This document shows, piece by piece, positions 7,726-62,969 of a stretch of 64,000 nucleotides of DNA. The translations under genes were made by a program, and so were the position numbers. The stretch's first letter is position 1, and every line of letters starts with the position of its first letter. The notes beneath the pieces are model-generated. The model searched no databases, was not told where the DNA came from, and saw only the letters and a program-made list of their open reading frames with translations. The DNA is from Botryllus schlosseri (lineage: Eukaryota). Location of the stretch: the NCBI GenBank assembly GCA_051294905.1, contig CM119372.1:7194001-7258000 (forward strand), read 5' to 3'.

Positions 7726-7727
7726 TA

Positions 7728-22046: not shown

Positions 22047-23003
22047 CTCTACGGTCTATTTTTTGCAACAGCTTTTGCCTTTTGGCATAGACGTCTCTTT
22101 TGCAACCTCATTCATTGAAAACAGATGAGACTGCCTCTCTCTTTGAAGTTTCATCAGCTTCATTGTAATTCAAACGTATGATTTTTATATGCTGTAGGAC
22201 CTCATAGCAGCAACTCCACATTACACGATTTCCCATAGCGCACAACACTCATCGGTGAACTGATTTACTGCAGGGGAAGCAGTCATGATGGTGAAATGAT
22301 AATCTGCAGACAACTTTTTCAGGACCAGGCATCCATACCTCTTCTTCGTAAACGGAATCATTCTCCCGATAACTTTCTGTTTCTTATTGATGCATCTTTT
22401 AAGATCAAATGACCATCATCCTTACACAATGAGGAATACAACAACAGCGATATCATACGACTTTCGAAAATTAACAGCAACGTAAGCTGCCAGGGTGTCT
22501 ACTGTCTATGTCCATCACGAGGATTAGACGCCAAGAAACAGCATCATTTTCGTCACTAACAGCTATTTGATAGCCATATGGATGATTTGTATTGATATGA
22601 ATACTTTCACCATCCTCGTTGTGCATCAAGAGAGAGAGAGAGAGAGAGAGTCTTTATTTTCATCCAACCAAAATACATAACACACGGCAGTGATAGTGGT
22701 ACAGGAAATATGCTTGCACAGTATTCGGTATTAGATAGGAATGATCGATAAGACCGTGAAGGTCATCTAGTCTGATCACACCAGCATCAAACAGGTACAC
22801 TTGACTCTAAGCAGTCTGGCTGTAAAAAAGGTTACAGTAGTTAAAAAAATAAAATAGAAGAAAAATTAAACGATGGTAGCAAATGATCAATGAAGCAATG
22901 TCCGGGCGAGGTAGGGCAACAGTGTTAGTGTAGCGACAAGAGGTGATCAAGTAGGGCTTTTTTGAATCTATTATAAGGCAATTCACGGATGTGTGGTGGT
23001 AAT

Positions 23004-41700: not shown

Positions 41701-44700
41701 AAAGACAAGGCTCCCATTGAGCGTGGGTTGAGTGAAAAACAGTGCTTGTCTTTTTGTTGATACCGTATTACACTCTCTTGGATAGAAATAAAAAATAAAC
41801 TGTTTTTCGGTAATATATAGCTTGAGTCCGCGGATATACTGGCGAGCTTGAGATGAGTCCGCGGGTCAAAAAGGTTGAGAACCACTGTACTAGCCTATTG
41901 ATTTGCAGCCTACCTATTGTTTGCTCGTACTGATGATTTATAGATTCTGATAACATTTGTCTTGTAAATGAATAATAATAATCATTACCCATAACAAGAA
42001 ATCATATCATGCAGTGGTATACCGTACTACTACACTACTTAGTATGCCATGTTGGTGATATTTGAGAATGCTAGAGAAATTCGCAATGCTGGTAATCGCC
42101 TTATGAGCAACTGTTTTTAAATCAATGAAATTTCTTTTTTCATTCTATGGAAGTATTTGTGTGCGGTCTCTATAAAAATGGTGTTATATGTCGAAATGTT
42201 ATACACATTGAAATTTTGCCGCGAGCAGTATCGAAGAAAATAGGTTGTCTTCGCCTCTGTGACTTTTAGCTGTGTTGCAGCTTATTCTGTGCCCAGGGGC
42301 ATGAAATTAGTCATATTCTCTTGAAACGAAACTATATATTTCATTGATTAGTTTTCAATGTATTTTAGGCCATTGCTATCGTCTGGAGAATTTTATGGCA
42401 ACGGACAAATATCTGCTTCTCATTACGCATTAGCAACGGCTTATGACAGGGTATCCAAGAAGCTGGCCGAAGCTGAGAAGCGAAATCTGCAACTCAGGCA
42501 AGAAGCTAGCCTGAGAGATCCAGTAAGTTTTGCAATGTGCCAATTTGAGTCGACATTGGTGTGCCATTTGCTAATCTTTTAAGCTTTGTTGTTGAAGTAC
42601 CATGCTATGTCAGTTAGAGAGTATGTTATCTTGTCAGTGGCCAGTTCAATCTAACATATGATACTGTTTACTGAGTTAGTTTACCTGTTGTCATTTCAAG
42701 TTTAGGTTTCTCTATGTGGTGGTTTGTTGGTTATTATTTGAGCAAATCTAGTATTTATTATGCACGCACATTGATATTTGTTTCCTGAATCATTGCAAGG
42801 CGCAATACACTCAATACAGTATGACAAGCATGTAATATGTATCTATAGCAGTAGTGCCATTTCTACATTATAAATTACTGCTCCAATGGTATTCAATCTG
42901 GTGATTGAGGCTTTTATTATATAATGGGGAATGAAATATCTATATCAGTGTACTGTTGCAGGGCTGAGTCATCATCTTTTTCTTGACTGTTTATTGAAAT
43001 ACTCACTTGACTAAGTGATGTCCATATTATTGCATGACTTTTCGTTTCATAAGGACGAGGTAGATCACAGTATTCGATCAGATTAGCTGGTTTTCAATTA
43101 TAGAGCGGAATTTGATATCCTGTAAGTTAACATATTTCTCAATTCATGACAAAATCCAATCAGGTGTGGGTACTACTGATGCTGAAGATATACTAGTCCT
43201 TGGCTGCATCCCTATGTCTCATTTCTGACATATTGGTTTCACCCATATGTAGCTGTCTCTAATGTATGACTTTTATGCAGTAAGTCAGTGTGGCATCGGT
43301 ATTCACCACCATGAAGCACAATTGTTGTAAGCCAGTTACCGTAATTTGATCATGTACAGAGATTACTTTTGATAGCAATTGAGCAAAGGACAACAGAGCT
43401 GGCTCTGAACCGGTTTCACGACTAGGCTTGTGATGCCAAAAAGTCACTGGTAACTCTCAAGTCTCATTTCAAACTAACTTATTTACACTGATGATACATT
43501 GCAATGATACGCTGCATATGAGAGAATGACATGTGTTGATTTCTATGGAATTGTTGCTTAATATTACTGGCTTGTGGCTTTGTATTTATTGCATTGGTGT
43601 ATTGTAGTGACACAAAATCAATCGCCAAATACCGACTGCCGGTAGGCATTGATACTTGATACCTTCACTATGTCGTGCGTTTGATTACATTATCATAACG
43701 GTGATGTGATTTTCACTTGCGGCCGTCTGGCAGAAGGTTGCAAGCCGTCATTTTCAGTAAGCATCGAAAACGCTCATTGCACTGTCAGTACTATGTTGAC
43801 TTGGTGCTAAGGCATGCGTCTTGTTGTCAGTTTGAGATTACATTTGTGTGGAATGCTGGAGCTTTATGACCCAGGTTCGGTGGTGTCAGACTGTCTACTA
43901 AGGGAATGTTATAGATTTGGCATATCACCTTATAGTATGACTGGTTGTAATACTATTTCATTCAATTTCTAGTCGTATTCACCAAGAATGTCCTCTTCTC
44001 AAGCAAGCTACGCGTTACCATCAAATCTACAGGACAGTGTCAACCAAGCCTGGGAAGCTTACAATGAAAAGTGCAAGGAATGTCAGCAGTTACGGGAAGA
44101 GCTGAAGGAAGTAAAACACCGAGTAAACAACAGTACTGTAAGTCATCTTTCACAGTTTTGATCCGAGGAATTGATTTTCAATAAACTCCCAGTGGTGGCT
44201 GTACTGAGGTTTCAGTTTCAGATGAGATGAAAAATCACATGTATAGATTATTATCTCGCCAGTTTATCAACTAAATAATGATGCAGTTGGTTATGTGACA
44301 AAGCTGAAATGATACCACAAATGTTGACACCTATTGAAACAGTCTCTATGCTCCAGTTTGGTTTTATTACAATTATGCATCATTGCATTGTTTCTGTCTG
44401 TTAAAATATTGAAATTATTTGCTTTCTGGACTGTATTTTTCTACGCAATTCGCATATTAATGAAACCTAGCATGATTTGGGATCAGGTGTAGCCTACCTA
44501 TAAAGATTTGAGTTCTATGTATGTCATTCCACCAATTCAGTGATTACATTTGTCAATTTTTGGTTGTTTTTGGTAGTCTTTCCCGGGAGAATTATTAATA
44601 AGTCGAGATCAAAGCCATGTAGGCCTACTGGTGCAGTGCCAAACATATTTGTATAAATTTTTCCGAGTTTATTATTCTTCAGTGTCTTGTGATGTTCATG

Positions 44701-47700
44701 GTTAGACGATTTCATCAGTGACGTTTTATGTGTAATACGATTGTTGATATTGATCTACAAAGTTTTTCCAATTCTCTACTAGTTGCTGACGATTACTCCT
44801 GATTAGTGTCAGCCGAAAATATTTGGGTTCATTTCAAGGTGTTCTGCGGATTTTACTTCAATGATGTTGTCAATTCAAATAGCCGTTATTTCCCTGAGCC
44901 TAAATGTTTTGCGTTTCATTGCCATTATTGATCTATTCCGGCAGGTTCAAATCATTCTTGGACCATTCTTCCTGTATTCTCTGTTTGGTTGACTTCATCA
45001 TTATCAGTCAATTGAATTAAGACAAAAGTATGATGTTCGAGATCTGTGATGACTCAATTCTCACTTGATGCTAACTACAAGGTAACAGCGGCACACGAAA
45101 ATACGGCCGTGATGTGCTTCATTCAATATCACGATGTGGTAGCAATGAATTTCAAAAAGCTCTGCGCTATTTTCATGTCTTTAGATCAGGGGTGGGCAAA
45201 CTACGGCCCGCAAACTACACCATTCTGTGCGGCCCGCAAGAGTCTAAAGAAACTTATTTAAAATATTGATAAAATGCGTACTGAAAATCGAAATAATGCA
45301 GGGACTTCATTAAACTTTTTCCTAGTATATATCACTATGATAATTATAAGGCAGTGGTTCCCAAACTGGGGGCGGGGGCATAAAAGCATCTGAAGGGGGG
45401 CTCGAAGCTGAGCTTAACTGAAAATTTTTTTCGCGATACGCGCTATTTACATCCCGTTCATCATTTGCTCTGCATTTAGTATGAATTTCATATCTAAAAA
45501 TCTCTCATCCACAGTCGTAACCTTCCATGCCACCAAACTATCCGTTAGGTTTACTAGCATCCTGGTTGCGTTTTGTGATATGACGATAAGGGGGCGCGAA
45601 ATCTTTTACCATCATAAGGATGGGCATGTTCTAAAAAGTATGAGAACCACTGTTCTAAGGTAAATACCTCCTATATTATTTTTTATGTTTAATTTCTGGC
45701 GTGTCAGCCCGACTGCTTTCAACTGCTAAACATCACAGAAATCTGAAACGAGATTGACGGATCACGAGTGTGATTTCAGATTGGCAACTCCTGTTTTAAT
45801 TAATTCAGTGATGTGCTTATAAAAATCAAATTTGCGCGTGTGTTAGGTAGATTCGTTCTCTGGATGCGTAGAATTGGGGTATATATATATTATTTACACA
45901 TAGTAGAAGCGTGTTTGAAGCTAACATGGTTATGATGCTGTCAGCATTGTGTGTCCTGGAACTGAACCAAAAGTGGATTTAGTAAATCTATGAACAGATC
46001 GCTGCTCACAGATTTAAATTTCAATCCTGTTCCAAGAATCGAGACAACCGACTTTCATCTCTATAATTTTGACAAATTGGTTATTGAGGTCGACCAGTCT
46101 ATAAAATTCCGCCACTGTTTCTGACGCGTGTACGATATCATCAAAGCAATGTTTGGATTGTTTCATATAAGCATATATATTATCTCCATGTCATCACTAT
46201 ATAATCAAATACCAATATTGCGCTTTGGTTTTTAATCACAATTTTATATAGTGTGGCCCGCGAATGGATTCAGATGTTGACTGCGGGCCGCGAGCTCAAA
46301 AGTTTGCCCACCCCTGCTTTAGATGGTAACAACAATCCTTGCATTCCATCTGTTTTTTCTGTCTCAATTTTCAAGGGACGAGCATTTGCTTGCGGCTTTA
46401 CTTCTACCGGGGTCTGCCGACCAAGGTATGAGGCTTTCGGTGTACGAAGGCCGAGTTGTTGGAAAGGAAATGAAAAGATCCTTGCTGTAATGTCTGCTTG
46501 CCTTACCTTACCTTATGGAAGCATCTGCCCCGATTTCAGCACTCCAGCGAAATCCAAAATCTCCAAGAAGATGTCTTGCGTGAAAAAGCAAAACAGGACG
46601 ACGTCACGAGGAGACTGGAGAAGACAAAAATGGAGGCTGACCACCTAGAGAAGAAGGAAATCTTGGCTCGGGAAGAGTTGGAAAAAGAGAGGGTGAGCTT
46701 GATATTCTCGAGATGTCCGAATTCGAATGACGGTTTTCATCCTATATTTGCTAGCTTGTTGTGATGTACAGGCAGGCAACATTTCACACTTGAATGAGAA
46801 TGTATTTTGATGTTTAGTAAAATAAGTAACTCTTGTCTAAATGGTCATTACATAGTCTTGCTATGTTCATAAAGTTATATGGCTCAGTGAGACAGTTACA
46901 GTGACTGCGTACTAAAACATTAAAATATTTCCAGGCAACCAGCTGTAGTGTGGTTTTACCTTGACAAAAATTCAGACTCTTGCTTGAATCACTACAGAAG
47001 TAATGAAATACGTATGATACATATTTTAATTCTTGGATAGCGGTATACATTCTCATTTAATTGGTCACATGTTGAAAATCCGGGGTACATTAACCTTATT
47101 GACGATGCTGCAGCTCCTAGTTTTTTTCACTATGTCCTGCATTACTATAGGCCTACTACATATAGTGACTACCAGAGTTGGTAGGTAGCGGAGTACCAGT
47201 TTTTGGAGTACCGTAACACGGGGTGACTTTAGCACTGCCGGGTGACTTTGGCCGAAAACCAATATTCGTTTCTATTGCACACATCGAACAATATATCGAT
47301 GTATGAGTACTTTGAGCAATTGTTTAGGAACAATCTGCATCAATAGAGTACTATTAATGCAAATTTCATGGTTGATACAACACTTTTACATGTTCGCAGC
47401 CATTTTTATATTGACAGGTATGGTGAGAAATTTCACCACACTTTTTACGTACTCAAACTTTTGTTTGGTTTACATGCAAAGTAGGTGTTTGAGGCAAATT
47501 CCTTTGATTTGCAGACAAAGGCTATGTATCTGACAGCATTTCTGGGGTTTTATGGGCGAAACTACAGTTCATTATTTCAAGATTGTCAAAATCATGTGGC
47601 TGATCAATTTTTTAAATTTTTTGCAATTTATGGGGTGACTTTGGCCAGCTATTTAGAGTCAGCTAAAATGGGTATTTTTTGAATCAAGATTAATCTTAGC

Positions 47701-50700
47701 ATTTGTATCTTCTAAATAATTAAATGCCAAGGAAATATAGAAGAAATCTTGGTGCCAGGAGTTGTATAGACTACTCCGCAGATGAGATCCAAGCGGCACT
47801 AAGAATGGTCGAGGAAGGAATGTCGGAAAGATCTGTTAGTGAAATAACTGGTATTCCGAGAGGGACTTTACAGAATAAAAGGATAGGAAAGCATCCGAAA
47901 TCACCAGGAGGCCAGCCTGTTTTATCGTCAGATATGGAATAGCAGACCATTGTATGGTGCAGGCAGATTTTGGATTTCCTGTAGACAAATTTTGTCTTGG
48001 GAAAAGTATCTCGAGAGAGGAGGTTGCCAGGATAATTGCTATACAAGAGGAGAAGAAGGCTTCAAAACGGAAGAAAAAATGGTGACCAACCATCAACATC
48101 CCAACAAAAATGAGTTGAATTAGTCACAAGCACTCAACATGAAAGTCATGACGATTCTTCAGGAGCAGAAAATTTCCAAGAAGATTTATGTAATGATGTA
48201 GTTGAAGTGGGAGCATTAGAAAAGGAATTGAGAGCAAAACTAAAAGCTGGCCAGTAGGCCTATGTAATAATTAAGTATAAGGGAGAATTATTTCCAGGTG
48301 CTGTGGAGAGTACAGAACAGCATGGTGCAGAAGTCAGTGTTATGCAAAAATCAGGAAGCAATTGGAAATGGCCAATTCAAAAAGACCAGATATGCTATTA
48401 CTGGAAAGATATTAAACAGAGAATCTGCGACCCGGACTCACTGAATGCTCGTGAAATCTACAAAGTGAATGAACTTGAAGGGCATTGGCATTGAACTACT
48501 TTTTGTCATTGGTTTGTTTAATTTCGTTGTAATTTTGAAGATTTTTGTGGTTTTGCATTCAAATTAAAGTCTGAAAAATCACCATTGGTTGGATACTTCT
48601 TTTTTAAAAGACTGTAGATGGCCAAAGTCAACTTCTCAGCTTGTGTCATTGACAAATATGACTGCTAGATGTCCTGGAAGTACAAAAAATGGTGCTCGGC
48701 TAAAGACACCCCATTGCCGGGTGACTTTGGCCACCACAAAAAAATTGAAAAAAAATTATCAAAAACATGTGAATAATTTTCTTTTCCAAGTTTAATCCAT
48801 AGATCTAACCCTTCCGCCCATAGCAAAGTTGAAGAAGGCAGAAAATAATAACATATCATAAAATAATTCAACATTGAATGTGAAAAGTGGTACAAAGTCA
48901 CCCCGTGTTACGGTACCATACTCCAATAGGTTTTACTTACTCGGTTATCTTACTGAAGTGGCTGATGGTCATGTTTATAGATTACTTTCACCCCTAGTTA
49001 TCAGTTTTTTAAGGAAAACTACACTTTTTTATTTGGGAAAGTCAAAAGTAGCATAGGTATACGTTAGATTCACTTTTATGTGTCCAATTTTTTAAACATT
49101 TGGTTGAAATAGCCGAATTGTATCACAGTAACTGAATATATGCTCCTAGTTGTAGAGTCGTTAGTCAATTTGCCGCGTCCGTAGCGTAAATGCTCTTTGC
49201 AATTTCGAAAATAGCCTCCTCCAATTACTGTGAAAAGAGTAGGACCCCTCGTCCAATTCTAGGTTTTTGGGTATTAGTTACCTGAATACTTTTTTCAGAC
49301 CTGGATTTCTCTACTTATTCGTGCAGTAGTTTTACATGTTTTGAAAGTTGCTCCTTTGAAGAGTAATTGAGTAGAAATTTATGACGTCACATCGTCACTT
49401 CTACTGCTATTTGAGTAGGCCTACCAATGCCGACTACTTTGATCATTTCCGCTGCGTCGTGGCAATGTTGCACATCCACCGCCTAAATCGGTGGTTCTTG
49501 ACCCTTACGTTAATTTGCAAAACTTTGGCGGATCCCAAATTTTTGCTGAGTTCTCAAAACAAAAATCTACTATATTACACATCCGATACATTACTACACA
49601 ATACTGGTGCAAAAAAATGAACAGTGCATCAAGAACGGTGTTAAATGAGCTAAACCGTTAGAACACGATCTTCAAACAAAACTAAAACATTGTAATGAAT
49701 ATTTACTTCTAATCAGCGAGACTTGACCTCCTCTGAATCATTGGCTCAGCAAACTCCTCGGTTTCATTTTGTCAAAATCAATAACAAGCTGCTGACTTTT
49801 CCGGACAGGAATATCAGAAGAATCTGATACAGATCGCAGAGAAGAAACACAATGAGATGGAACAACGGATCGAGGAACTGGAACGAGGCCTGGCGAACGA
49901 GGTACGAATTTCGACGGAAGCAGTGCGATGCCTAGAATCCGTGCATGTTGTTTCCCGCATTTGTAGAAAAGCCTGACGGAGGATTTACGAATGCGCGAAC
50001 AAGACCGGGCCATAGCGCTGGAAGAGGAATTTCTTGTGAAGCAGGACACTTTCAAAACGAAAATCCGGGAACTTGAGGAGCATAATATTTCGTTGCGGGT
50101 GAAAATGACTTGTTGTGATATTTGTACAGTTAGAAAATTACCCCCCCTGATGGACCTGTAAAGCTTATTACTTGGATTAGTTTCGAACGTATGTTAGTTA
50201 GATATGCAGTACGGTATTTGTAACTTTTCATTTGCTTGTCTGCCTCTCATCCGGTTTAGACTGTGATAAAGATGACAATGGTGATGCGTGGTTCAATTGG
50301 TATTCGTTCTTCTTCCAAGCATGTGCCCTCTCTACTACCTCATCCTTCTGCTATATTCTGTAGCAACTATAGTTGCAATTTGTGATTTTGACTCGATAAA
50401 ATCGGTTGCACCGCATATATTTGAAATTTGATAATATATTAATATATTAATATTGAAATCAACCTGAATATTTTCGGCCGACACTCGTCATGGGTAATCG
50501 TCAGCAACATCGAAAGAAATGAAGCGAACATTGTGCAACAAATATCATGTATAATCCTCTGTTTCTCCTTCTCGCATTGCAACCTGATTCTTTTGTTTAT
50601 GACAGGAAGAGGTGGCCGTTTTAATATCAATGCAAACGGGAAACTCAAACCCTAGCGGTCCCGGTTCGAGGCCGTTTGTAAATGGAACTTCACCCAATCC

Positions 50701-53700
50701 CTCCACACAATATGAGAGGTTAGTTGCTATCTGCGAGGCACCCGTCTCGATATACGCCTTATTTTGTACAGTATATGCATATTGAAATAAACCCAAATGT
50801 TTTCGGCTGACACTCATCATGGGTAATCGTCAACAACTAGCGGAGAATTGTAGTTGTTGTAATCGTAATCATTACCCCTGACGATTGTGTGCTATTTTAT
50901 TGTATGTTGAAGTTCTGTACCTGCAAGAAGACTTTATTTTGTAATTTAGCAACTTGGACATTTCTACATTGGAAGAGGAGATTCGTAATCTCAATTCGGA
51001 GTTGAGCGACCTCAAGAAAAGGGCAAATGAACAATCGCAACTGCTAACAAGCTTATTCCAGAATACAAAACTTAGTACACTATTAGAAACGATGCCCGAT
51101 ATACCTCCATTCAGATCAGGTTTGCATAGTTCTCAGTGCTTGCTTTTCGCCGTGTAGTGTACATTATCATAAATTAAACCTGTATTCTGCGATTATATCT
51201 GGGGAATTGATACTGAGTTAACGTATTTGGAGTAAATATAGGGCTGGATTTGATGGAAATATCATGAATGAGTAGTGAGTTATATTGGTAGCAACCCGCA
51301 ACTGATATCTATTTTTAGACCCGCTTGGTTGTCTCTGATGATAAATGTTTAGGGGATTTCCCTGCCTGATACAATTCATAGCATAAGGACTTGTGTTGAC
51401 TGTTGATAGAAGCTTGAGACAAAGTGCGTATGCCTACAATGACACAAGTACTGAGCATCATTGTTCTCGGATGTGAATGTTTTCTGTGGGTAGTACATGG
51501 CCCATGGTAGGCCTTGGGTTTAGCGTCATTTGAAATTACTTATTTGTAAGTAATTCCGGATTGTACATTAGGGCTCTTCAAAAATGACTTTTTTCTCAAA
51601 TCGCACTGGCTACTTGATAAAATTGTTAGGTTACCTAATTTAAGCCTACACACCAAATTTGGTTCAATTCCAACCAGTGGAAGCGGAGTTATTGCTGTCG
51701 AAAAATTTGGATTTTAATAAAATAGTATTTACGGTGGGCACCACCATAATAAATAATTAAAGACATTGTCACCGTAAATACTATTTTATTCATAATCCAA
51801 ATTTTTCGACGGCAATAACTCCGCTTCCACTGGTTGGAATTGAACCAAATTTGGTGAACATCGTTTCTATAGACAACCCAACACTTTCATGGGGTGAACA
51901 GAAAATTTTCAAATTTTTTGGTATTTATTTTTATATAATAAATAGAAACTTTGTTCTCCTGTATTAATGCGGCTACTGCTTCGAATTGAACCAAATTTGG
52001 TATTTAGGCTTAAATTAGGTAACCTAACAATTTTATCAAGTAGCCAGTGCGATTTGAGAAAAACAGACATTTTTGAAGAGCCCTATTGTACATGTTCGTA
52101 CAAGCTACTCCTGGTAGTGGTATTTAATCTCCGTTACAAGTACCGGTAATGTATTTGATGATGTCATGCATTTAAGCTGATTGATTCACGATTGATCAAC
52201 ATTTCCTTCGGCAAAACATGAAATAGGCGTATAATTCAAAATTATCATCTCAAGTTCATTCATGAATCTGCAATTATTTTCATGAAAACGTAACTGTTTT
52301 GTTGTAAATTGAGTACGGTACAGTAAAGTTTTTGTGCTGCAGGCAGTGAAAAACCGTCCTTGTTATTATGACGATTATGGCGAAAGTTGTGAACTGTTGT
52401 TGCCTTCATTTGTTTGGTCTGTTTTAAATTTATCGCCTATTTAGTAGTGATATGTAGGTCATGGTAGGACTTGGCAAATTTGAGTTACCTTGACAGAGGT
52501 AAAGATTATGTGCAAATTCTGTCAGTATACCTCTGAAATTCACTGTGTCTGGATATACCACTCGTATTGTGAACCTAACATTTATTGGTTTACTTGATGA
52601 TATTTCGAGTATAATGGCCGCAGAGGTATTCAATCTTGTCACCAATGTAAGTTGTCAACTGACCATTACACTGGAAATACCACGACCATCGAAAGCAATT
52701 TTTTACCTGTATCTTCAGTTTTTCTTTCTCTCCATTAGCATATCGTGAAATCTGTTGATCATGAGTTCAAGTATCATATGTGCTGTTTGGATGATCACAA
52801 AAATTGAAATGATCCGACTGACCTAGTGTGTGGATTGTTGGACGATGGACATCCTTGTTGCTGTATACGTAGGCTATAGTCGTTGTTCATAATATGGCGA
52901 ATCGTTTAACTTCCGACTTCGCAAATTCTACCGATGATTCGCGCAATTTGCGTGAAAGCTATGTCGATTAGAAATATAATCTGTTGAAACAATCTTACCT
53001 AGATCCTTTGCCACAATGTCGCAATCCAGGGTTGTGCGTGCGTCAAAAAATCAACTCCTCGCCGAAGATTAGCAGGAGAGCTGCTAACAGCAACGAGTTG
53101 GCGGGCGGCAGCCATTCGCTATCTCGAAAAGACTCTCGCGAACTTATGTTGACCGAGGACGCGGCGTCAAAGCAAAAAATTTTGAAACTTCATGACGGGG
53201 GTCCTTCCATCATGTCCACCGAGGAATTCATCCGGTCGCTAGATCAGGAAGGAAATATTCAAGTGAGTTAGGTCACGGAGATATTGTAATCGTAAAGTTT
53301 ATAGCTCGGGCTGGGCGTGATATTCTGTGGAGTATGGAGTATTCATTCTAATGTTTTCAGCTAAGTAGTGATCGAGCTAGTTTTCTCTACTACCTAACTA
53401 AATTATACGCTCCTGGACACAGAGAGTTTATTTATCAACCATAATTCTAATTTCAATAGCCTATTTCCCACCTGTGAAAGCCTTGAAACCTCAATTGGTC
53501 GTATCGCAGCATACTGAATGTGTTGTACAAAGCAACGCACGTTAGTGTAAATGACATTACTGTGAAGTCGTGGTCAACTGACAGCATTGCTACGAAGTGC
53601 AATGAAATATGCAAGTTTGAAAAATACCTAAGTATCTTTAATGTGATGTATAACTGGCCTTATACCTAGGCTAGTTGTGGTAGCGTAAAGGATACATGTT

Positions 53701-56700: not shown

Positions 56701-59700
56701 ACCTCTTTCATTGCGCTTTGTAACAGCTGCTCGGTTAATTAAGACTTCCGAGTTATATGTAATTTACATTTTAACCCATACCCAGATTTTAACTACATGT
56801 TTTCTTCAGTATAACTGACATTATGTTATCATGTTCCGTTCGATCTTATGAATGGTGTACATTTCAACTTTTCAATTCCCTTATTATGTACAATGTACCA
56901 TGTTATAGCGACGGGTACATAAATATTCGACCTGGAATTGAATCAATCAAATACCATAAACCCGGGTATCATTGGACTTGAGGGTAAATTTGGACACTAA
57001 GCAGTAAAACATTCAAACGGTTATTGATGGAAAAGGGTGGCCGCTGGATTTCCAATTCTTTTTCATGAGGCGAAAGTACCACAAGTAGTCTGGATAAAAG
57101 ATTGATTCATTTCACTACCAGTTAAACTTGACCCAACATCGATAAATTAATGGCGGTGATCAATTTCATCATAATTGATGGTTAACAAAATTCTTATAAA
57201 CATTGATAGTATATGAGCCATAGATTCAAAACTTGGCACCAGATACCTCCAAGTAGTCTTGATATAGAGCGTAAAGGCATAGAAAATACTGCATCGTCCA
57301 AAGTTATCCCACATGCTGCGGAAACTTTGGACACGAATAATAAAAAAAATAGGGTAGCTACATGACCATGAGGATTTTGGATTAGTTTATTCTAATCTTT
57401 GCTCCATATCCCCAGAAAAACACAAAACCCCCTGCACTCTAGCATTTCCAATATATGAAGCAAAATTGTAAAAAATTGTCCAAAGTTACCCTCGTTTACG
57501 ATAGTCGATTTTGCTCTGCTCTCTGCCTACAGTCTACATATGAGCATGTGACACTGAGACACGTGAGTTAGTTTTAGGGTTGTAGAGTCACGTGGTCGAG
57601 TGTCACATGCCCAAATGTCATTTTTCGTGGTGTCGCCGGCTGAAATGTTGGGCAACCACTTAAGACATGTTTGGCGTCTATAAGAGCTCGTCGTATGTAG
57701 CCTCTTGCGCGCTACAAATATATTAGATGTTGGCAATAGGTTTGAAACGTTGTATTTGGCAAATGCCTCTCTGCAAACTTTCGTAGCTATCTTTCAACCT
57801 GTTTGTACGGTTCGCGAGGCAAGTCTGTTTGTTTTGGTGCAGCCGCCTGTCTGTTTTTTCAATAGGGGATTTCCGTTGGTTAAAATTAGTTAAGCTAGCA
57901 CTGTACAACACATTGGTTTCGGGTTATCTGTAGGCGTTGCTAAGAGTGCTTAGTTGCTTAGCTAAGATTAATACGTGATAGGCCACTTGAAAACTTTAGC
58001 GGTGGGACAAATATTTTTATAAAATACAAGTTTATGGATTTCATGTTATGAAAATAAGCAAAGTCACAATATTTGATTGAAGAATTGGGATAGCGGATAT
58101 TGACTTTCTTGATGCGCATTGATGGTCAGTAAAGGGGCTACTTCTACTTTTTCAGAGTCCTCGAGGAGGTTTCCCTTCTCACACTACTTAGTCAAGTTCT
58201 TATGTTTTAGATTACTTCCTCTTTATCAGTTTTTTAAGCAAAACCACCTCCTTTTACGTTTTGGAATTCGAAAAATATAAAGTGGATTTGAGGTTATGCA
58301 GGGGTCGCCAACTCAAACGGGTCTTGGGCCACTTTTCAAATTTCGTAGAGGCCGTGGGCCGCATGAATTCAATATTAAGATCAAATAGCCACGCGGTTTA
58401 ATAACCACGCTTTTAAAACTTTACGTCAGTACGACGCTGTGCTAACTTGGGCGACAGGCATCGTTACTACAAACGAAGTAATATTGTATTACAGAAATAC
58501 AAATACGAAACGAAAAATATCATGATCATCAATTTCATTCTGTTTTCAACTATGAGGGATATCTGACAACGCTTTTCAGCAACTAAGGAATAGATATTGG
58601 AGCTAGTGAGACACGGACACGGTACTAGCTAAAATACTATCTCCTCGAAAAGCATGATCTTGCGAAGAAGCAGTAAGCCCATTTTAAACGTTTCGGTATT
58701 GGCCATTGACCGTCAAGGCAATATGCCCAGCCCATTCAAGCAGCTGATTTGGAATGCTGTTGCCATCGCCGAAACCATTTCAGCTGGTGACGAAGAGTGA
58801 TGTTGGGCACAGGAGAGTAGCTCATTTTCAAGCAACAACAACAATACTTCGAAACTGAAATCAACGTTCAGCATTACAAAATGCTTTGGTTAGCGTACTT
58901 CTGAAATCAGATTGCGGGCCGCAAAATCTGAACTTGCAGGCTGCGGTGTTGGTGACCCCTTCTTTAAAGAGTGAATCGTCATAAGGACAGCGGGCAATAT
59001 AGTCCCTTTATCATTGTATTTGAATTTATAATTCAATGTATTGTTTTTTAAATAATATTTTCTAGGATATTTGTAATGTCATCTTGTGTTAGTCGTGAAG
59101 GTGCATCTTGCTATTTGGAGAGTAACCACGCGATTACTCGGCCAAATCTACGTTTTGAAACTACTCTCTCAAGAACTTTGCGGGCCGTTCATTTATCACT
59201 AACGTATGTTTTGCAAATTGCTATTCCTAATCAAATAGAAATTTGCGGCATTACTTGTACCTCTACTCGAGTAGACACGCCGACTGCTTTGACCTTACTC
59301 GTCGTTATTGGTGATTCAGGTGGAACGACCATCCCCCGACCAAGGCACATCACGGAAAGCGTTTCAAGACGTCGGCTACCGGGCTCCGGCCGCGCCCACT
59401 AATACTAGACCGGCTATTCGCGCCCGACCTGAGGTAAAATAATAGGTCCAGTGTAGGCCTACCTTCTTACCCGCACCCTATAACTCCCGTACGACGTCGA
59501 GGGATTGCGGACTGTGTGCAACTGCAGTGGGTGGCACAGTTTGACAGCTAGAACAATTCCAACTTTTCCAAATTAGATTAGATTTGGAATTATAGCTACA
59601 CTGTTTTCCAAATTTAGAATTATTGAATTCGCAAAAACATGAAATTGAATTGAATTGTGAGTTAGGAATGAAATGCAAAAAGCCATATCAAGTTGGAGTT

Positions 59701-61294
59701 CATTCCCATAAGCATGGACAATGGCAAGTACACCTAGTTTGGCTGTTTTCGCTCTATATGGCTATAGATAGATCACTAACCTACGGATAGATACGTCACT
59801 CGCAAGCAGTGTCTCCTATTGACGAGCGATCTAAGTACCCGCGAAACAATAACTTCATATTGTTAATTTATTCGCTAAAAGCTTTTCGACTAACTCTCAT
59901 CAGTAGCGAACGTTAGTGATGGGGTGAATCCAATTCGAAATGTAAGAACTATTTTGTCTGTATGACGTAATAATAACAAAAACAAACAACTAGTAGACGG
60001 GCAAGATACGGTAGCTACGAAAGCCGATTCTCTGTCGCCAGAAGGAACGCCTCTACACTCTTGGAATATTTCATTAATGTTATGTGTTGTGTTTTCGGTT
60101 ATTTATAACCGAATATGTACTCGTTAACGTTTGTTTTGTACCGTTACTACCGTATCTTGCCCGGCTACTAGTTGTTTGTTTTTGTTATTATTACGTCATA
60201 CAGACAAAATAGTTCTTACATTTCGAATTTGATTCACCCCATCACTAACGTTCGCTACTGATGAGAGTTAGTCGAAAAGCTTTTAGCGAATAAATTAACA
60301 ATATGAAGTTATTGTTTCGCGTTATTCTGAAGTTCTGTACCACAAATAACTTGTTCAAATCTAAGTAGCGTAATTGGTAGTGCTATAGCTGGCGACCCGA
60401 GCGCTGAAATTTAATATCGTTGGTCTTGATCAAAAGCTAGTGTTGCACTGATTCCGAAAATACAAATTAAAATCTTGTCAGGGCAATGGAACCACGTCTA
60501 GACATCCCCTAAAGTCAGAAAATCGGCATCGTCTAACAATGGCTGCGCCGCAACACAATGAACATAACAATGGCCCTTTTGGCTAAGCAACTGTTCGGAA
60601 CAATGCCGATTTTAAGACTTTTAAGGGCTGTTCTGATGTGGTTCAATTGCCCTGCCACGATTTTAATTTGTATACTGGGAATCAGTGTGACATAGCTTTC
60701 GATAAAGACTAGTTGCATTAAATTTCAGCGCTCGGGTTGCCAGCTATAGCACTGCCAATTACGCTAGTGTTAGATTGCTCAGCAATAAGAGAGACTGCTT
60801 GCCCAAGCGTAACGCCGGGTTTTGCGGGAGTTACGTATCTATCCGTATGTTAGTAATCTGTAATACAGCTCTCCTGTAGCATTTTGAAGGAAAGCCATAA
60901 ATTATATTTCGCTCCAATTAGACAACTACAATTATCTAGTTGCCCTAGTCTGGTAGAGAGGTGTTGATGACATGGTATTTGTCGTGACGTCATATAGGAT
61001 CTTATGTAATACGGGTGCCGAGTTTGATATTGATTGGTGGTATAACACGGGAGATATCCGGTCTGGAAAATAGAGTACACTATACTAAAGCAATACTTTG
61101 TCCCGTTTTCTCAATCCACACGTTTACAGACGAGCGCGCCCGCCGGACACCGTCAATATCCCGAAGGCCAGCAAGACGGCGGCTGTCCCATGTGCTCGCA
61201 GGTGTTCACGGAGGAATGGTCGATGGAGCGAAAGACCAGACACATTAACGGGCATTTTAGCGACGACGAAAACGGCCTTCTTTCGTTCGAATAA
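29626..61294 (+). CDS. AZI2/TBKBP1-like: TBK1-adaptor family protein (AZI2/NAP1-TBKBP1/SINTBAD-TANK-like), 16 coding exons, 739 aa: join(29626-29701,29730-29868,42369-42522,43973-44137,46540-46692,49809-49901,49967-50098,50606-50718,50950-51119,53003-53262,54416-54519,54579-54676,55580-55696,56356-56522,59320-59433,61130-61294)
   Basis: All introns are GT-AG and phase-consistent, giving 2220 nt with a single terminal stop. Motifs versus recalled human sequences: DDFSVI (cf. DDICIL); ASHYALATAYDRVSKKLAEAEKRN (cf. AZI2 ASHFALVTAYEDIKKRLKDSEKEN); VNQAWEAY (cf. VNKAYHAY, TANK LNKAYEAF); a TBD-like helix; C-terminal CPMC-x15-HINGHF zinc finger. The frame is open upstream of the ATG, so further 5' exons are possible. 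Confidence 0.85.
29730..29868 (+). CDS. AZI2/TBKBP1-like: Adaptor gene exon 2 (DSDDVHRS...NNGVNSG)
   Basis: Acceptor tttcag; donor GG|gtgaga; phase 2 matches exon 3. Confidence 0.65.
30012..31319. mobile_element. Non-autonomous pogo-like (Tc1/mariner superfamily) element, copy 1
   Basis: TA|CCGTAAACCGGGGTAAC ... GTTACCCCGGTTTACGG|TA; internal copies of ggggtaactttggaca. Confidence 0.92.
31695..32353. mobile_element. hAT-Charlie-like MITE
   Basis: caggggtcgccaac / gttcgtgacccctg; TSD gcttaagc; a diverged copy lies at 58299-58960 and an inverted fragment at ~25680-25742. Confidence 0.9.
32628..33891. mobile_element. Non-autonomous pogo-like element, copy 2
   Basis: Same TIRs and TA TSD; collinear with, but visibly diverged from, 30012-31319. 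Confidence 0.92.
34097..35046. mobile_element. hAT-type MITE with ggttcacgttc repeats
   Basis: TIR tagggatggtgtgaac / gttcacaccatcccta; TSD atatatct/atatatat. Confidence 0.88.
35078..37653 (+). mobile_element. Defective hAT-Charlie/Buster-type transposon, copy A
   Basis: TIR cagtgtttctcaacc / ggttgagaaccactg; transposase C-terminal remnant TYLCESGFSTL..KFSNRLQPEDDIRC..LTNTIPEFNSLVKRDQRQGSH* at ~37320-37487. Confidence 0.92.
36506..36979. mobile_element. hAT-type MITE nested in copy A (also 40740-41213 in copy B)
   Basis: TIR caggaccgtaac / gttacggtcctg; TSD cacgtatg/cacgtagg. Confidence 0.88.
37821..41887 (+). mobile_element. Defective hAT-Charlie/Buster-type transposon, copy B (contains a Harbinger insertion)
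   Basis: Near-identical to copy A apart from 38069-39559. Confidence 0.92.
38069..39556. mobile_element. Non-autonomous PIF/Harbinger element
   Basis: TIR gggtggagcccaatt / aattgggctccaccc; 3-bp TSD TTA; clean empty site in copy A (ggacTTAgtttt, ~35323). Confidence 0.92.
42369..42522 (+). CDS. AZI2/TBKBP1-like: Adaptor gene exon 3 (ASHYALATAYDRVSKKLAEAEKRNLQLR)
   Basis: tattttag acceptor, gtaagt donor; AZI2/TBKBP1 N-terminal coiled-coil signature. Confidence 0.92.
43973..44137 (+). CDS. AZI2/TBKBP1-like: Adaptor gene exon 4 (DSVNQAWEAYNEKCKECQQLREEL)
   Basis: tttctag acceptor, gtaagt donor; AZI2/TANK-like motif. Confidence 0.9.
45187..46316. mobile_element. hAT-Charlie-like MITE
   Basis: TIR caggggtgggcaaact / agtttgcccacccctg; TSD ctttagat. 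Confidence 0.92.
45352..45652. mobile_element. hAT-Charlie-like MITE, nested
   Basis: cagtggttcccaaact / tatgagaaccactg; TSD ttataagg/ttctaagg. Confidence 0.83.
46540..46692 (+). CDS. AZI2/TBKBP1-like: Adaptor gene exon 5 (coiled coil)
   Basis: atttcag acceptor, gtgagc donor, phase 0-0; an alternative acceptor at 46548 is possible. Confidence 0.85.
47211..48913 (+). mobile_element. Internally deleted pogo-like transposon
   Basis: TA|CCGTAACACGGGGTGACTTT ... AAAGTCACCCCGTGTTACGG|TA; HTH-psq N-terminus MPRKYRR...YSADEIQAALRMVEEGMSERSVSEITGIPRGTL (47724-47942) and C-terminal YVIIKYKGELFPG...WKWPIQKD (to 48494); DDE core missing. Confidence 0.93.
49809..49901 (+). CDS. AZI2/TBKBP1-like: Adaptor gene exon 6 (EYQKNL...GLANE)
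   Basis: AG/GT bounded, phase 0-0, coiled-coil composition. Confidence 0.87.
49967..50098 (+). CDS. AZI2/TBKBP1-like: Adaptor gene exon 7 (KSLTEDLR...HNISLR)
   Basis: ttgtag acceptor, gtgaaa donor, phase 0-0. Confidence 0.85.
50606..50718 (+). CDS. AZI2/TBKBP1-like: Adaptor gene exon 8 (EEVAVL...STQYES)
   Basis: gacag acceptor, gttagt donor; supplies the phase 0-to-2 change needed for exon 9. Confidence 0.82.
50950..51119 (+). CDS. AZI2/TBKBP1-like: Adaptor gene exon 9, TBK1-binding-domain-like helix
   Basis: LEEEIRNLNSELSDLKKRANEQSQLLTSLF versus recalled AZI2 TBD MQHAYWELKREMSNLHLVTQVQAELLRKLK. Confidence 0.85.
51569..52085. mobile_element. hAT-type MITE with long TIRs and an internal ~85-bp-arm palindrome
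   Basis: tagggctcttcaaaaatg / catttttgaagagcccta; TSD ttgtacat; internal inverted repeat at ~51652-51856. Confidence 0.9.
53003..53262 (+). CDS. AZI2/TBKBP1-like: Adaptor gene exon 10 (DPLPQCRN...EGNIQ)
   Basis: cctag acceptor, gtgagt donor, phase 1-0. Confidence 0.85.
54416..54519 (+). CDS. AZI2/TBKBP1-like: Adaptor gene exon 11
   Basis: tttcag acceptor, gtaggt donor, phase 0-2. Confidence 0.85.
54579..54676 (+). CDS. AZI2/TBKBP1-like: Adaptor gene exon 12
   Basis: ttttcag acceptor, gtattg donor, phase 2-1. Confidence 0.83.
54970..55398. mobile_element. Degenerate MITE with gagtc/gactc repeats (related pieces at ~56120-56250 and 63770-64000)
   Basis: cagggttgta start, gactcgagtcgagtc arrays, degenerate right end. 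Confidence 0.55.
55580..55696 (+). CDS. AZI2/TBKBP1-like: Adaptor gene exon 13
   Basis: ttttcag acceptor, gtgagt donor, phase 1-1. Confidence 0.85.
56356..56522 (+). CDS. AZI2/TBKBP1-like: Adaptor gene exon 14
   Basis: ttttcag acceptor, gtaatt donor, phase 1-0. Confidence 0.85.
56954..57501 (-). mobile_element. Shorter, inverted deletion derivative of the 30012/32628 pogo-like family
   Basis: Degenerate TIRs with flanking TA; reverse-complement homology to both ends of 30012-31319. Confidence 0.85.
58299..58960. mobile_element. Diverged copy of the 31695-32353 MITE family
   Basis: caggggtcgccaactcaaac... start, collinear internal homology, ggtgacccct end; TSD not conserved. Confidence 0.8.
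59320..59433 (+). CDS. AZI2/TBKBP1-like: Adaptor gene exon 15 (VERPSP...RARPE)
   Basis: attcag acceptor, gtaaaa donor, phase 0-0. Confidence 0.8.
59871..59910 (-). ncRNA. Minimal type-I hammerhead ribozyme motif (antisense copy)
   Basis: Reverse complement of 60251-60290. Confidence 0.65.
60251..60290 (+). ncRNA. Minimal type-I hammerhead ribozyme motif (sense copy)
   Basis: ttcgcta CTGATGA gagttagtc GAAA agct T T tagcgaa: 7-bp stem I, intact core, 2-bp stem II, palindromic 4-nt stem III, followed by AATAAA. Confidence 0.68.
61130..61294 (+). CDS. AZI2/TBKBP1-like: Adaptor gene last coding exon, UBZ1-type C2H2 zinc finger
   Basis: CPMCSQVFTEEWSMERKTRHINGHF...* versus recalled TANK CEFCQAVF...LRHLNSHF and TBKBP1 CPLCQLGF...IKHIDSHL. 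Confidence 0.9.
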   Translation, partial: TSAPAGHRQYPEGQQDGGCPMCSQVFTEEWSMERKTRHINGHFSDDENGLLSFE

Positions 61295-62969
61295 CGCGTT
61301 GCATTACTATAAGCCGGGGCGCGAGTGTGCATTCAGTTGATTCGTTCCGTGACTGAAGTGGTCGTCTTTTGATTGGGATCTGCGATTCGTGCGCTCGCGG
61401 ATTACTGGGCGCTTGATTGATGAATGCATTGTTACTAGGGCTGCGCAAATTTGAGTACCTGAATGATTTGATTCTGAACGGGGGGGGGGGGGGGTATTCG
61501 GGGCGTAGTCGAAGTATCACTCATGAGTTTAAAACAGTATGAATGATGTTGTGGAAAGTTAAAATACGCACCTCTTATGACACTGCACAAAGAATATCAT
61601 GTTCTACATCACATTAAAGATAATTTGGTATGTTTTCCCTCGTACCTATTTCATTTCACTTTGTGACAACGCTGTGGTCATTTCCACTAACGTACATAGC
61701 TTTGTTCTACATGTTTCGTGTGGGGCGATACGACCCATGGAGGTTTCAAGGCTGCCACAGTGGGAAATAGCGTCGAAATAACAATTCTCGTAGCCCCGGT
61801 AAAAAAGCGTACAAGTTCAGTACTCGATTGAGATCGTAGTACGCGAATCATTGTGCTCAGCCCAAGTGTCGATGTTGTTAAGTTGCGTAATCGCGGAACA
61901 GCCGGGTTGTCAGTGGTGTGTGTGACGTGACTGGTTACGCACTGGCGTGCTCACGTAATCAAGCGCATCTTTGATAAATCAGGTTTGGGATTTTGAAGAT
62001 ACTACAGTAACGGGTTTATTTCGCTGTGATGTTTTCTCATCTCTGTGCGTTCAAACCGCGGGTAGTTGATTACCTTTCGACCGCGCGGTCATCGACCCCA
62101 GTGGTTCGGCGTCGCTCCGGGACCTCTGTCAAACACCATACAGTGGTGCGATGTAATTGCTTGTACGGACAGCGGCCTGTCCGAAAAATTGCGGCGGAAA
62201 GTCTACGGCGCTGAAGCAGAGGCGCCGATCTCCGTTCGCTGTTGTCGTTTCTTCAACGCGGTCTTCGCGCACAGACTCGCTTTGCGTATCACCTTTACTT
62301 CTTCGTCGCGTGAAGTCTGCGATTTTTATCCGTTCTATATTACTATTCTTGCTACCAATGCTCTCCGCTTAATTTACGATTCTAATAAATATTTCATTTT
62401 TCTCGTACGATTGCGGGGATGATCTGTTAGAGCTCAGGTGTTTGGTACGTTGCTGAACTACAGTATTTTACCGCAACGTGCCGTGTCGGGGTTGGGGGTG
62501 TAAGACCAGTATTATAATCCAGTTGCGTTGCTACTGGGTTGCTTAGTAGCCTACATCACCATGTCTTTAGGCGTCATTATGGAGTCACACACTTCTTAAG
62601 CAACTGGCAGACGAAAATGTTCGTGATATGCTTAAAGCGGGAGGCAGCAACCTTTTTAGCTCTGCGGACAGGTTTTTAAATGAATTTTTTTTTCCGGCCG
62701 GTTTTCAAAAAAATAATCAACATCGAAAATCTATTGCAGCTCCAACACTATAAATAAGGTCACTACAGGGAGCCCAGTAGGGCAGTAACACTTATGTTTA
62801 GATAAAAGGCCCAGCAGGATTTATGGGGATCTTCGTTCAAAATTTGATCAATGCGCATATTATACCTGGGTAAGAATTGAAGGTACTGTGTTTATTCACC
62901 GATTGTTTTGCTTAGAGAATATGAAATTGCATCTACTGAATATTCCATTGAATTAGGAATATCATATAT

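What the first reader, a model, noticed from the sequence alone, without database searches (positions are those of the whole stretch)
59838..60358. 521-bp Penelope-like unit with two hammerhead ribozymes in inverted repeats, inside the adaptor gene's last intron
Seen: a 9-bp TSD (atctaagta) bounds a unit made of a 175-bp inverted repeat, a 132-bp spacer and a 37-nt 3' extension. Each arm contains stem I-CTGATGA-stem II-GAAA-AGCT-TH-stem I', and removing the unit restores the host MITE arm. Established: minimal type-I hammerheads with palindromic stem III are characteristic of Penelope-like element pLTRs and act as dimers, and inverted-pLTR insertions with a short 3' tail are a known PLE product. 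Inference: this is a young non-autonomous PLE or retrozyme-like family. The sense copy sits in the host pre-mRNA, where the antisense arm would sequester it in long dsRNA. The UUU cleavage triplet and 2-bp stem II suggest weak activity.
Basis: partly seen in the sequence, partly recalled or inferred. Interest (0 to 1): 0.72.

Follow-up and report, generated by a model that had tools for sequence, protein, structure and literature searches.

The report
Truncated Penelope retroelement with pseudoknotted hammerhead
The hairpin-shaped insert is a dead stump of an ordinary, abundant Penelope-like jumping gene (the two ends of its protein gene plus a mirror-image copy of its terminal repeat); the one less familiar part is its small self-cutting RNA motif, which is braced by a conserved extra helix and has not been shown to cut.

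Summary
The reading 'non-autonomous or retrozyme-like family' does not hold. The spacer encodes the last 20 residues (20/20) and the arm end plus tail the first 19 residues (18/19) of an uninterrupted 850-aa RT + GIY-YIG-type Penelope-like protein, P0176. The unit is therefore a 344-nt 5'-truncated copy of an ORF-bearing, high-copy, transcribed and polyadenylated PLE with the usual inverted pLTR, an architecture already published with a 9-bp TSD and a 31-bp tail. A short stem II is then no sign of weak activity. Cleavage was not shown, and no read ends piled up at the predicted site. Verdict: a known kind of insertion and a new family member, with a possibly undescribed ribozyme subtype.

The parts
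59829..59837 (+). Left target-site duplication (9 bp)
   Evidence: Exact copy at 60359-60367; only these two in the window
59838..59839 (.). Two extra bases at the 5' junction, not matching the sense copy
   Evidence: Direct comparison with the reverse complement of 60322-60323
59840..60014 (-). Inverted pLTR copy (reverse complement of 60147-60321), with a hammerhead whose core starts at 59903 on the minus strand; lacks the tail
   Evidence: 173/175 identical
60011..60018 (.). 8-bp palindrome spanning the head-to-head junction; the first four bases of the spacer equal the first four of the sense arm
   Evidence: Sequence; palindromes at inverted junctions are described for Adineta Penelope elements
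60015..60077 (+). Last 20 codons and stop of the PLE ORF (end of the GIY-YIG endonuclease region)
   Evidence: 20/20 identical to residues 831-850 of P0176; ranked first of 3479 six-frame segments by C-terminal profiles
60078..60302 (+). 225-nt non-coding stretch between ORF stop and ORF start (pLTR); poly(A) addition site of family transcripts at 60132
   Evidence: 9 reads of run X23 carry an untemplated A-run behind 60132, where the DNA is T-rich
60244..60290 (+). Type-I hammerhead: pseudoknot strand 60244-60249, stem I 60251-57/60284-90, core 60258-64, 1-bp stem II 60265/60273, loop II 60266-72, GAA 60274-76, palindromic stem III 60277-82, predicted cut after U60283
   Evidence: activity not tested
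60303..60358 (+). Start of the PLE ORF (first 18 codons and part of the 19th), beginning 19 nt after the predicted cut
   Evidence: 60303-60359 translates 18/19 identical to residues 1-19 of P0176
60322..60358 (+). 37-nt one-sided tail
   Evidence: Present only on the sense copy; other copies' contigs and reads end near 60319-60325 and 60347-60359
60359..60367 (+). Right target-site duplication (9 bp)
59770..60859 (.). Older host MITE-like inverted repeat, interrupted in its left arm by the insertion
   Evidence: Arms 76-91% complementary; related copy at 13375-13732
59434..61129 (+). Predicted last intron of the host adaptor-like gene
   Evidence: GT-AG, phase 0; acceptor supported by an X4 contig
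61130..61294 (+). Last coding exon of the host gene, with an autophagy-receptor C2H2 zinc finger
   Evidence: PF18112, E 7.4e-5

Best explanation
A dead-on-arrival insertion of an ORF-bearing, endonuclease-type Penelope-like element. The parent unit is about 2778 nt: an 850-aa RT plus GIY-YIG-type ORF and a 225-nt non-coding stretch with the hammerhead. SHOWN: the insert consists of the parent's 3' end (last 20 codons, non-coding stretch, first codons of the next ORF) and an inverted copy of 175 nt of it, between 9-bp direct repeats; the family is abundant, transcribed and polyadenylated on the plus strand. INFERRED, from the in vitro work on the Anolis PLE: the element protein nicked both target strands 9 nt apart. 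Each nick primed reverse transcription on element RNA at one of two internal start sites 37 nt apart, inside the start of the ORF (60358 and 60321). The two cDNAs stopped early, after 344 and 175 nt, and were joined head to head at a short palindrome. The RNA template ran through the hammerhead site, so it was uncut or re-ligated. The hammerhead is a type-I motif with a 1-bp stem II held to stem I by a 6-7-bp pseudoknot; its self-complementary stem III most likely forms only when two copies meet, as in tandem transcripts. At this locus it has no same-strand partner and is buried in a 175-bp duplex with the antisense arm that is transcribed first, so it most likely does not cut the host pre-mRNA.
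For: Parent protein: P0176 matches both ends (20/20, tblastn E 3e-7; 18/19, E 3e-5), has no X or stop, carries RVT_1 (E 1.6e-9), a weak GIY-YIG match (E 0.0068, below cut-off), DKG, YVDD and IIY...YVG motifs and precomputed PF26215/PF28514. It was reached without using the window's peptides as queries: descriptor scan, locus L086, its N-terminal piece, then a profile search. A P.LC.Q[KR] motif lies in the last 60 residues of 103 of 119 clade proteins, at a median of 17 residues from the end, as in the spacer. Profiles of 81 full-length members, P0176 among them, rank the spacer and the tail first of 3479 segments (E 1.6e-6 and 6.9e-6); a profile of three proteins, built before P0176 was found, did the same (E 1.5e-4, next best 1.8). 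ORF plus non-coding stretch (2553 + 225 = 2778) plus a 30-nt assembly overlap equals the 2808 bp listed for P0176's contig, as expected of one head-to-tail unit (my arithmetic; contig not seen; word length 31 assumed). DNA run X1: summed depth 19,000-24,000 over the spacer, 39,000-48,000 mid-arm, 87,000-117,000 at the hammerhead end, against 6.5-15 on unique DNA. RNA run X23: 345 reads laid, 56 run over an end of the stretch while the far end has no depth. Published architecture: Pen2a_Av has an inverted pLTR, 9-bp TSD and 31-bp tail that includes the ORF start; opposite-strand hammerhead pairs 100-700 bp apart are reported for truncated PLEs; two RT start sites delimit the tail, and both target strands are cut and extended. 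Pseudoknot.
Against: No genome is held, so no full-length genomic copy, no other TSD and no empty allele was seen. P0176 comes from an unnamed source; that it is from this organism is inferred from 38 of 39 identical residues. Summed contig depth is not a copy number, as the tool warns. The GIY-YIG match of P0176 is below Pfam's cut-off. The twin-priming route is an inference; self-priming on an antisense template (PMC3846280) fits the junction palindrome too. Rfam scores are far below threshold. No pile-up of read ends at 60283/60284 in run X23 (table 6: none), although that library is not built to show such ends. BLASTP of the spacer peptide against L086's C-terminus found no alignment, and Pfam found nothing in the 20-residue peptide. 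Within the family the partner variants A60247G and U60269C are both common in X1 (15,251 of 26,484 and 33,177 of 41,524), but their phase is not given; in X23 the C occurs in 14 of 47 reads and the G in 2 of 51, so many copies probably carry a mismatch there.
Confidence: 0.93

Rival explanations
1. The 521-bp unit, or its 344-nt sense part, is itself a non-autonomous PLE derivative or retrozyme-like family that is copied as a unit by the parent's protein.
For: The hammerhead end is 3-5 times deeper than the spacer in run X1, so ORF-less stubs outnumber long copies. Animal retrozymes are reported to derive from PLE pLTRs (abstract and introduction). The junction lay on the edge of the stretch laid, so copies sharing it could not be counted.
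Against: Spacer and tail are in-frame ORF termini, nearly identical to P0176. Depth over 60015-60061 is no lower than over the rest of the spacer, and 56 RNA reads run past the stretch's end. The listed strand-switch joints of other copies fall at other places, each at depth 23 or less (15 of 29 joints shown). Retrozymes are defined as tandem repeats with a hammerhead in each unit; this unit is inverted and is not among the 35 tandem arrays of the window.
Confidence: 0.05
2. A Mutator-like foldback MITE (long terminal inverted repeats, 9-bp TSD; defining features recalled) that happens to contain a hammerhead-like string.
For: 9-bp TSD and 175-bp inverted repeats.
Against: The right repeat ends 37 nt short of the TSD, so it is not terminal. 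Internal and terminal sequences encode PLE ORF ends. The depth gradient towards the 3' end and the poly(A) site fit a retroelement.
Confidence: 0.01
3. The identity is as in the best explanation, but the inverted arm arose by fold-back self-priming or DNA repair at the junction palindrome, not by priming from both target nicks.
For: 8-bp palindrome and 4-nt repeat at the junction. Arkhipova et al. read such palindromes as self-priming. Both arms share the minority letter at 60158, so they derive from one template lineage.
Against: Fold-back alone does not explain why the arm stops 37 nt before the sense end, near the place where other copies also end (60319-60325). Two RT start sites do explain it.
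Confidence: 0.3

Closest known systems
Inverted-pLTR insertions of endonuclease-bearing Penelope-like elements (Pen2a_Av of Adineta vaga, PMC3846280; general scheme in PMC8557442)
   Same: Head-to-head inverted 5'-truncated copy, one-sided 30-40-nt tail, tail plus pLTR including the ORF's first codons, 8-10-bp TSD, palindrome at the junction.
   Different: Here the sense copy is cut down to 344 nt. The family belongs to a lineage with a P.LC.QK C-terminus that separates with SH-aLRT 100 from the 10 Poseidon-like proteins I used for comparison (quick tree; the label 'Poseidon-like' is mine, from recalled C-terminal motifs). No CX2-5CxxC linker in 119 of 119 proteins, so it lacks the feature that marks Neptune and Nematis.
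Minimal type-I hammerheads of metazoan PLEs (Cervera and de la Pena 2014, PMC4209133)
   Same: Type I, palindromic stem III, G10.1-C11.1, U17 common, location in the pLTR, opposite-strand pairs 100-700 bp apart.
   Different: Published motifs have a long helix II (3-8 bp in 44 of the 44 Fig. S3 rows I read) and usually an extra base after A9. This motif has a 1-bp helix II, no extra base and a covarying pseudoknot.
Pseudoknotted hammerheads with very short stem II (Perreault et al. 2011, PMC3088659; Rfam RF03152 RAGATH-1 hammerhead)
   Same: 1-bp stem II; stems I and II held together by a 6-7-bp helix; RF03152 also has a 7-nt loop II.
   Different: The tested 1-bp-stem-II example is a type-II ribozyme from a metagenome, and RF03152 has a long stable stem III. 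Here the motif is type I, lies in an animal retroelement and has only a 6-nt palindrome for stem III. RF03152 scores 20 bits against a threshold of 56.3.
Animal non-LTR retrozymes (PMC7229834; bioRxiv 10.64898/2026.07.22.740005)
   Same: Type-I hammerhead; relation to PLE pLTRs.
   Different: Retrozymes are non-coding head-to-tail repeats that yield circular RNAs. This is a single inverted insertion made of coding-element ends.

Membership tests
EN+ Penelope-like element | Single ORF with telomerase-like RT | tested here: met
   Parent P0176: 850 aa, RVT_1 E 1.6e-9, DKG and YVDD motifs. Met for the family; this copy keeps only 39 codons.
EN+ Penelope-like element | C-terminal GIY-YIG endonuclease | tested here: inconclusive
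   P0176 matches PF01541 at residues 728-756 below cut-off (17.1 bits against 22.6, E 0.0068); its clade relative P0228 passes (27.5 bits, E 3.9e-6). Very likely, but not above threshold for the parent itself.
EN+ Penelope-like element | pLTR, direct or inverted, with an optional 30-40-nt one-sided tail | tested here: met
   175-bp inverted copy and 37-nt tail
EN+ Penelope-like element | pLTR and tail overlap the ORF start | tested here: met
   60303-60359 = residues 1-19 of P0176, 18/19
EN+ Penelope-like element | Type-I hammerhead in the pLTR | tested here: met
   Core, stem I and palindromic stem III present, with covariation; Rfam below threshold
EN+ Penelope-like element | 5' truncation and tandem or partial-tandem full-length copies | tested here: inconclusive
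   Depth gradient, the stop-UTR-hammerhead-start order in this copy and in L086, and the 2808-bp contig length fit; no genomic tandem copy was seen.
EN+ Penelope-like element | Short TSD of variable length | not testable with these tools
   One 9-bp TSD seen; no genome is held
Neptune / Nematis clades | CX2-5CxxC linker between RT and EN | tested here: not met
   0 of 119 proteins by pattern search over residues 600-760
Non-LTR retrozyme | Tandem non-coding repeats, each with a hammerhead | tested here: not met
   Inverted, not tandem; contains ORF termini
Non-LTR retrozyme | Accumulating monomeric linear or circular RNA | not testable with these tools
   No pile-up of ends in one RNA run; library unsuited
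Active hammerhead ribozyme | Self-cleavage after H17, as monomer or dimer | not testable with these tools
   Needs an in vitro assay; cofolding two copies extends the stem-III palindrome into an intermolecular duplex
Mutator-like MITE | Inverted repeats at both termini next to a 9-bp TSD | tested here: not met
   The right arm ends 37 nt before the TSD; defining features recalled

The most novel reading that the evidence does not exclude
A lineage of animal Penelope-like elements carries an undescribed hammerhead subtype that joins a bacterial-style accelerating pseudoknot (1-bp stem II, 6-7-bp loop II helix) to an obligate-dimer palindromic stem III, 19 nt upstream of the start codon. It would be a fast switch that cuts only tandem transcripts, unlike the slow PLE hammerheads assayed so far. 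Cut RNAs would also serve as templates in vivo, since 2 of the 4 distinct strand-switch joints listed inside the element end within 2 nt of the predicted cut (60284 and 60286).
Probability: 0.25. Interest if true: 0.55.

Novelty: new member of a known kind. Interest (0 to 1): 0.3.

Why it matters
The insertion itself is routine genomic debris: the same architecture is in print, and eight earlier notes of this scan in other genomes describe related PLE-end structures. Two things are of some use. First, a high-copy, transcribed family with an uninterrupted parent ORF and exactly placed ends (60321, 60358, poly(A) at 60132) gives a ready test of the two-start-site model of PLE integration outside the Anolis element. 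Second, the role of PLE hammerheads is an open question, and those assayed were slow. A covarying pseudoknot shows that selection has kept a tertiary contact in this lineage, and warns that constructs cut at stem I would miss it. If the dimer proves fast, this subtype is a good one for asking what the ribozyme does in the PLE cycle.

Tried and rejected
Exact searches for the window's hammerhead found nothing in viral contigs or metagenome contigs. Of these 123 matches, 117 had fewer than 3 bp of stem I and were treated as chance; 3 (L076, L094, L109) have G at position 17 and were dropped; L034 (3-bp stem I, 8-nt loop, 6-bp possible pairing) was left out of the alignment as doubtful; L027 and L086 were kept. 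A second viral scan gave 3 loci, none with stem I. As a null for the pseudoknot, 6 of 93 distinct stem-I-less matches had 6 or more pairable bases and 1 of 93 had 7.

The degraded RT beside the L027 hammerhead is PLE-like but lies on the opposite strand, and its relatives form another lineage, so I do not count it as that ribozyme's own ORF. A profile of the C-termini of 9 of those relatives did not score the spacer. The 20-residue spacer peptide was too short for two search tools and gave no Pfam match and no BLASTP alignment to L086. A word-based search with L086's N-terminal piece found 0 of 40 candidates; the exhaustive search found 58. No other part of the parent ORF lies in the window. 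The Rfam MIR408 match (E 2e-6, 35 bits against 64) only reflects the perfect hairpin. The single-strand fold of the sense arm plus tail is not more stable than shuffles (z -0.33); that method cannot see pseudoknots.

A-to-I editing at this locus could not be tested: run X23 had no reads on the host's last exon, and none of the 88 reads at 60164 carried this copy's private G. The careful tree did not finish; the quick tree is cited. Luense, Weinberg and Breaker 2017, the paper most likely to describe such variants, is not held. Five paper searches and the passages read showed no description of a pseudoknotted PLE hammerhead, which is weak evidence of absence. Supplement file 1 of PMC4209133 could not be searched, and I read part 2 of 3 of file 2.


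Full report
1. Observation. The 9-mer at 59829-59837 recurs at 60359-60367 and nowhere else in the window. The arms 59840-60014 and 60147-60321 differ at 2 of 175 positions, the spacer is 132 nt and the extension 37 nt. Excising the unit restores a 221-column match to the other arm of an older MITE-like repeat, 59770-60859. The unit lies in a predicted phase-0 intron, 59434-61129. A 2400-nt contig from run X4 matches only from 61128 on, which fits an upstream exon ending in AG spliced to the acceptor at 61130; the upstream exon was not seen directly. The last exon encodes an autophagy-receptor C2H2 finger (PF18112), so 'adaptor gene' is fair. Both arms hold a full hammerhead core. Rfam recognises it only weakly (RAGATH-1 hammerhead, 20 bits against 56.3).

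2. What the spacer and tail are. The spacer's first frame reads 20 codons and a stop, and an ATG at 60303 is open through the tail. No genome is held, so I looked for relatives through the ribozyme. A relaxed descriptor found 123 loci, of which two, L027 and L086, had stem I, a G-C stem II, a 7-nt loop and U17. L086 reads ORF end, 205 nt, hammerhead core, ORF start, which is a PLE junction. Its N-terminal piece retrieved 58 proteins. The four longest carry RVT_1, two of them with a weak GIY-YIG match (8 proteins scanned, the 4 shorter ones gave nothing). A profile from the C-termini of three of them ranked the spacer first among 3479 stop-free segments of the window (E 1.5e-4, next 1.8), and a profile of the 58 N-termini ranked 60294-60365 first (E 1.4e-4, next 1.1). 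A profile search with five of them returned 1877 proteins, 120 listed. One, P0176 (850 aa, no X or stop), ends in the spacer peptide, 20 of 20, and begins with the arm-end-plus-tail peptide, 18 of 19. It has RVT_1 (E 1.6e-9) and a sub-threshold GIY-YIG match at 728-756; a clade relative passes the GIY-YIG cut-off. Its ORF plus the 225 nt between stop and start gives 2778 nt, and the contig is listed as 2808 bp, which is one unit plus a 30-nt overlap if the assembly used 31-letter words. That is arithmetic, not a view of the contig.

3. The family. I laid four runs on 60015-61400, a stretch with one arm only. In DNA run X1 the summed depth is 19,000-24,000 over the spacer, 39,000-48,000 mid-arm and 87,000-117,000 over the hammerhead end. 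It falls to 9,700 in the bin that holds the tail's end, and is 6.5-15 on unique DNA. The ratios are about 1,500-2,400 and 6,800-11,000. The tool warns that these are not copy numbers; I read them as hundreds to thousands of copies, enriched for 3' ends. In RNA run X23 (about 6% read) 345 reads were laid, nearly all on the element; 56 run over an end, and the far end has no depth. Nine reads carry an untemplated A-run behind 60132, 55 nt after the stop, where the DNA is T-rich, which fixes the plus strand as sense. These reads come from other copies: none of 88 at 60164 has this copy's private G. Ends of other copies cluster near 60319-60325 and 60347-60359. No place showed a pile-up of molecule ends.

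4. The ribozyme. The strand 60244-60249 is exactly complementary to 60267-60272 in loop II. The same helix forms, with other letters, in L027, in L086 (one base closer to the core) and in three copies of a second, older family in this window (44785+, 50505-, 50834-), which had turned up in a motif scan and a self-comparison before I looked for a pseudoknot. On these 6 sequences 41 of 42 cells pair and 4 of 7 pairs change on both sides; 1 of 500 shuffles reached the covariation score, 11 of 500 the number of two-sided pairs, and slid registers pair 26-48%. Stem I varies on both sides at 4 of 5 pairs, and the centre of the stem-III palindrome changes from GC to UA. Limits: six sequences, three of them related; the structure was drawn from them; rows dropped are listed under Tried and rejected. 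In the second family the loop's first and last bases cannot pair, so the conserved form is 1 bp plus pseudoknot. Within the family the partners 60247 and 60269 both vary (A to G, U to C), but phase is not given, and the RNA reads suggest many mismatched copies. Perreault et al. measured more than 1.2 per min for a hammerhead with a 1-bp stem II and 6-bp pseudoknot, with compensatory rescue (PMC3088659, passages). The short stem is therefore no sign of weakness. U17 is common among PLE hammerheads (about 20 of 44 rows by my count). Against activity stand the low rates of PLE hammerheads even as dimers (PMC4209133), the need for protein in the Anolis element, and the absence of read ends at its cut site (PMC11167929).

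5. Mechanism. Shown: composition, parent ORF, abundance, polarity. Inferred: two target nicks 9 nt apart; priming at two internal RNA sites 37 nt apart; early termination of both cDNAs; joining at the 8-bp junction palindrome. Frangieh et al. found both target strands cut and extended, and two adjacent start sites that delimit the tail. Self-priming at the palindrome is the rival. Both arms share a minority letter at 60158, and each has one private change, so they came from one template lineage and the insertion is young but not brand-new. The template spans the predicted cut, so it was uncut or re-ligated. In the host pre-mRNA the antisense arm comes first and the arm duplex is about -297 kcal/mol, so cutting of the host transcript is unlikely. 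Editing and splicing effects are untested. One hint points to cut RNA being used elsewhere: 2 of the 4 distinct strand-switch joints listed inside the element end at 60284 and 60286 (15 of 29 joints shown, orientation not given, and a 10-nt palindrome ends at 60284, which could bias them).

6. Comparison with what is known. Pen2a_Av has an inverted pLTR, a 9-bp TSD and a 31-bp tail that extends the ORF start (PMC3846280, passages). Craig et al. describe the inverted 5'-truncated copy and the 30-40-bp tail as typical (PMC8557442, passages). Cervera and de la Pena report opposite-strand hammerhead pairs 100-700 bp apart (PMC4209133, parts 1-2 of 4 and part of one supplement). Retrozymes are tandem non-coding repeats (bioRxiv 10.64898/2026.07.22.740005, part 1 of 5; PMC7229834, passages). 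I also saw passages of PMC6765202, PMC6466107, PMC10085705 and PMC8782182, and parts 1-2 of 4 of PMC11167929. Luense et al. 2017 I know only by title from reference lists; it is not held and may already show this subtype. The parent's lineage lacks the Neptune/Nematis linker (0 of 119) and is separate from the 10 Poseidon-like proteins compared (quick tree); I did not place it against named reference elements. Earlier notes of this scan list similar stubs in other genomes; none matched this sequence or the pseudoknot words.

7. Verdict. It works like, and on the features that could be tested is, a 5'-truncated EN+ Penelope-like insertion with inverted pLTR (confidence 0.93). It is not a retrozyme and not a separate non-autonomous family. 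Novelty: new member of a known kind. The pseudoknotted, dimer-type hammerhead is the one feature that may be new (probability 0.25 that it is both undescribed and fast as a dimer). Interest 0.3.

Noticed in passing
window 44785-44831 (+), 50459-50505 (-), 50788-50834 (-): Three decayed copies of a second hammerhead family of the same subtype (7-nt strand, 7-nt gap, 1-bp stem II, 7-nt loop, AAUAUU-type stem III). The two minus-strand copies are direct repeats 329 nt apart; two copies have C3 changed to A.
   Followed up: partly
window 50841-51002 (+): A segment weakly like the PLE ORF start (E 0.17) lies head to head with the hammerhead copy at 50788-50834 and just before a probable host exon near 50950: perhaps an older inverted insertion of the same design.
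   Followed up: partly
window 35322-37659 and 39556-41893: A 2338-bp direct repeat, 99.7% identical. Its minus strand has a segment resembling the PLE ORF N-terminus (35601-35840, E 0.0055) but no long ORF or RT was seen. Could be a recent duplication or an assembly artefact.
   Followed up: partly
L027:765-2031: A pseudoknotted hammerhead on the plus strand abuts a frameshifted PLE-type RT on the minus strand whose relatives belong to another lineage.
   Followed up: partly
window 60135: T>C in 18 of 103 reads of RNA run X23 and in none of the three contig sets; an allele, or editing on the antisense strand of some copy. A single site, unexplained.
   Followed up: no
window 60091 and 60281: Template-switch adaptor sequence joins 7 reads at 60091 and, with other letters between, 6 reads at 60281 in run X23: possible 5' ends or library chimeras.
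   Followed up: no
window 60250-60296: Summed DNA depth doubles between the bins 60203-60249 and 60250-60296, as if many copies begin just upstream of the hammerhead core.
   Followed up: no
window 47724-47942 and 48258-48494 (+): HTH_psq match (E 4e-5) with a downstream fragment: probable decayed pogo/Tigger-like DNA transposon (family name recalled).
   Followed up: no
window 17275-19365: Large inverted arrangement of 15-16-bp tandem repeats, a foldback-like element.
   Followed up: no
window 7270-7727 and 11454-11911: 458-bp direct repeat, 100% identical, about 4.2 kb apart: possible LTR pair.
   Followed up: no
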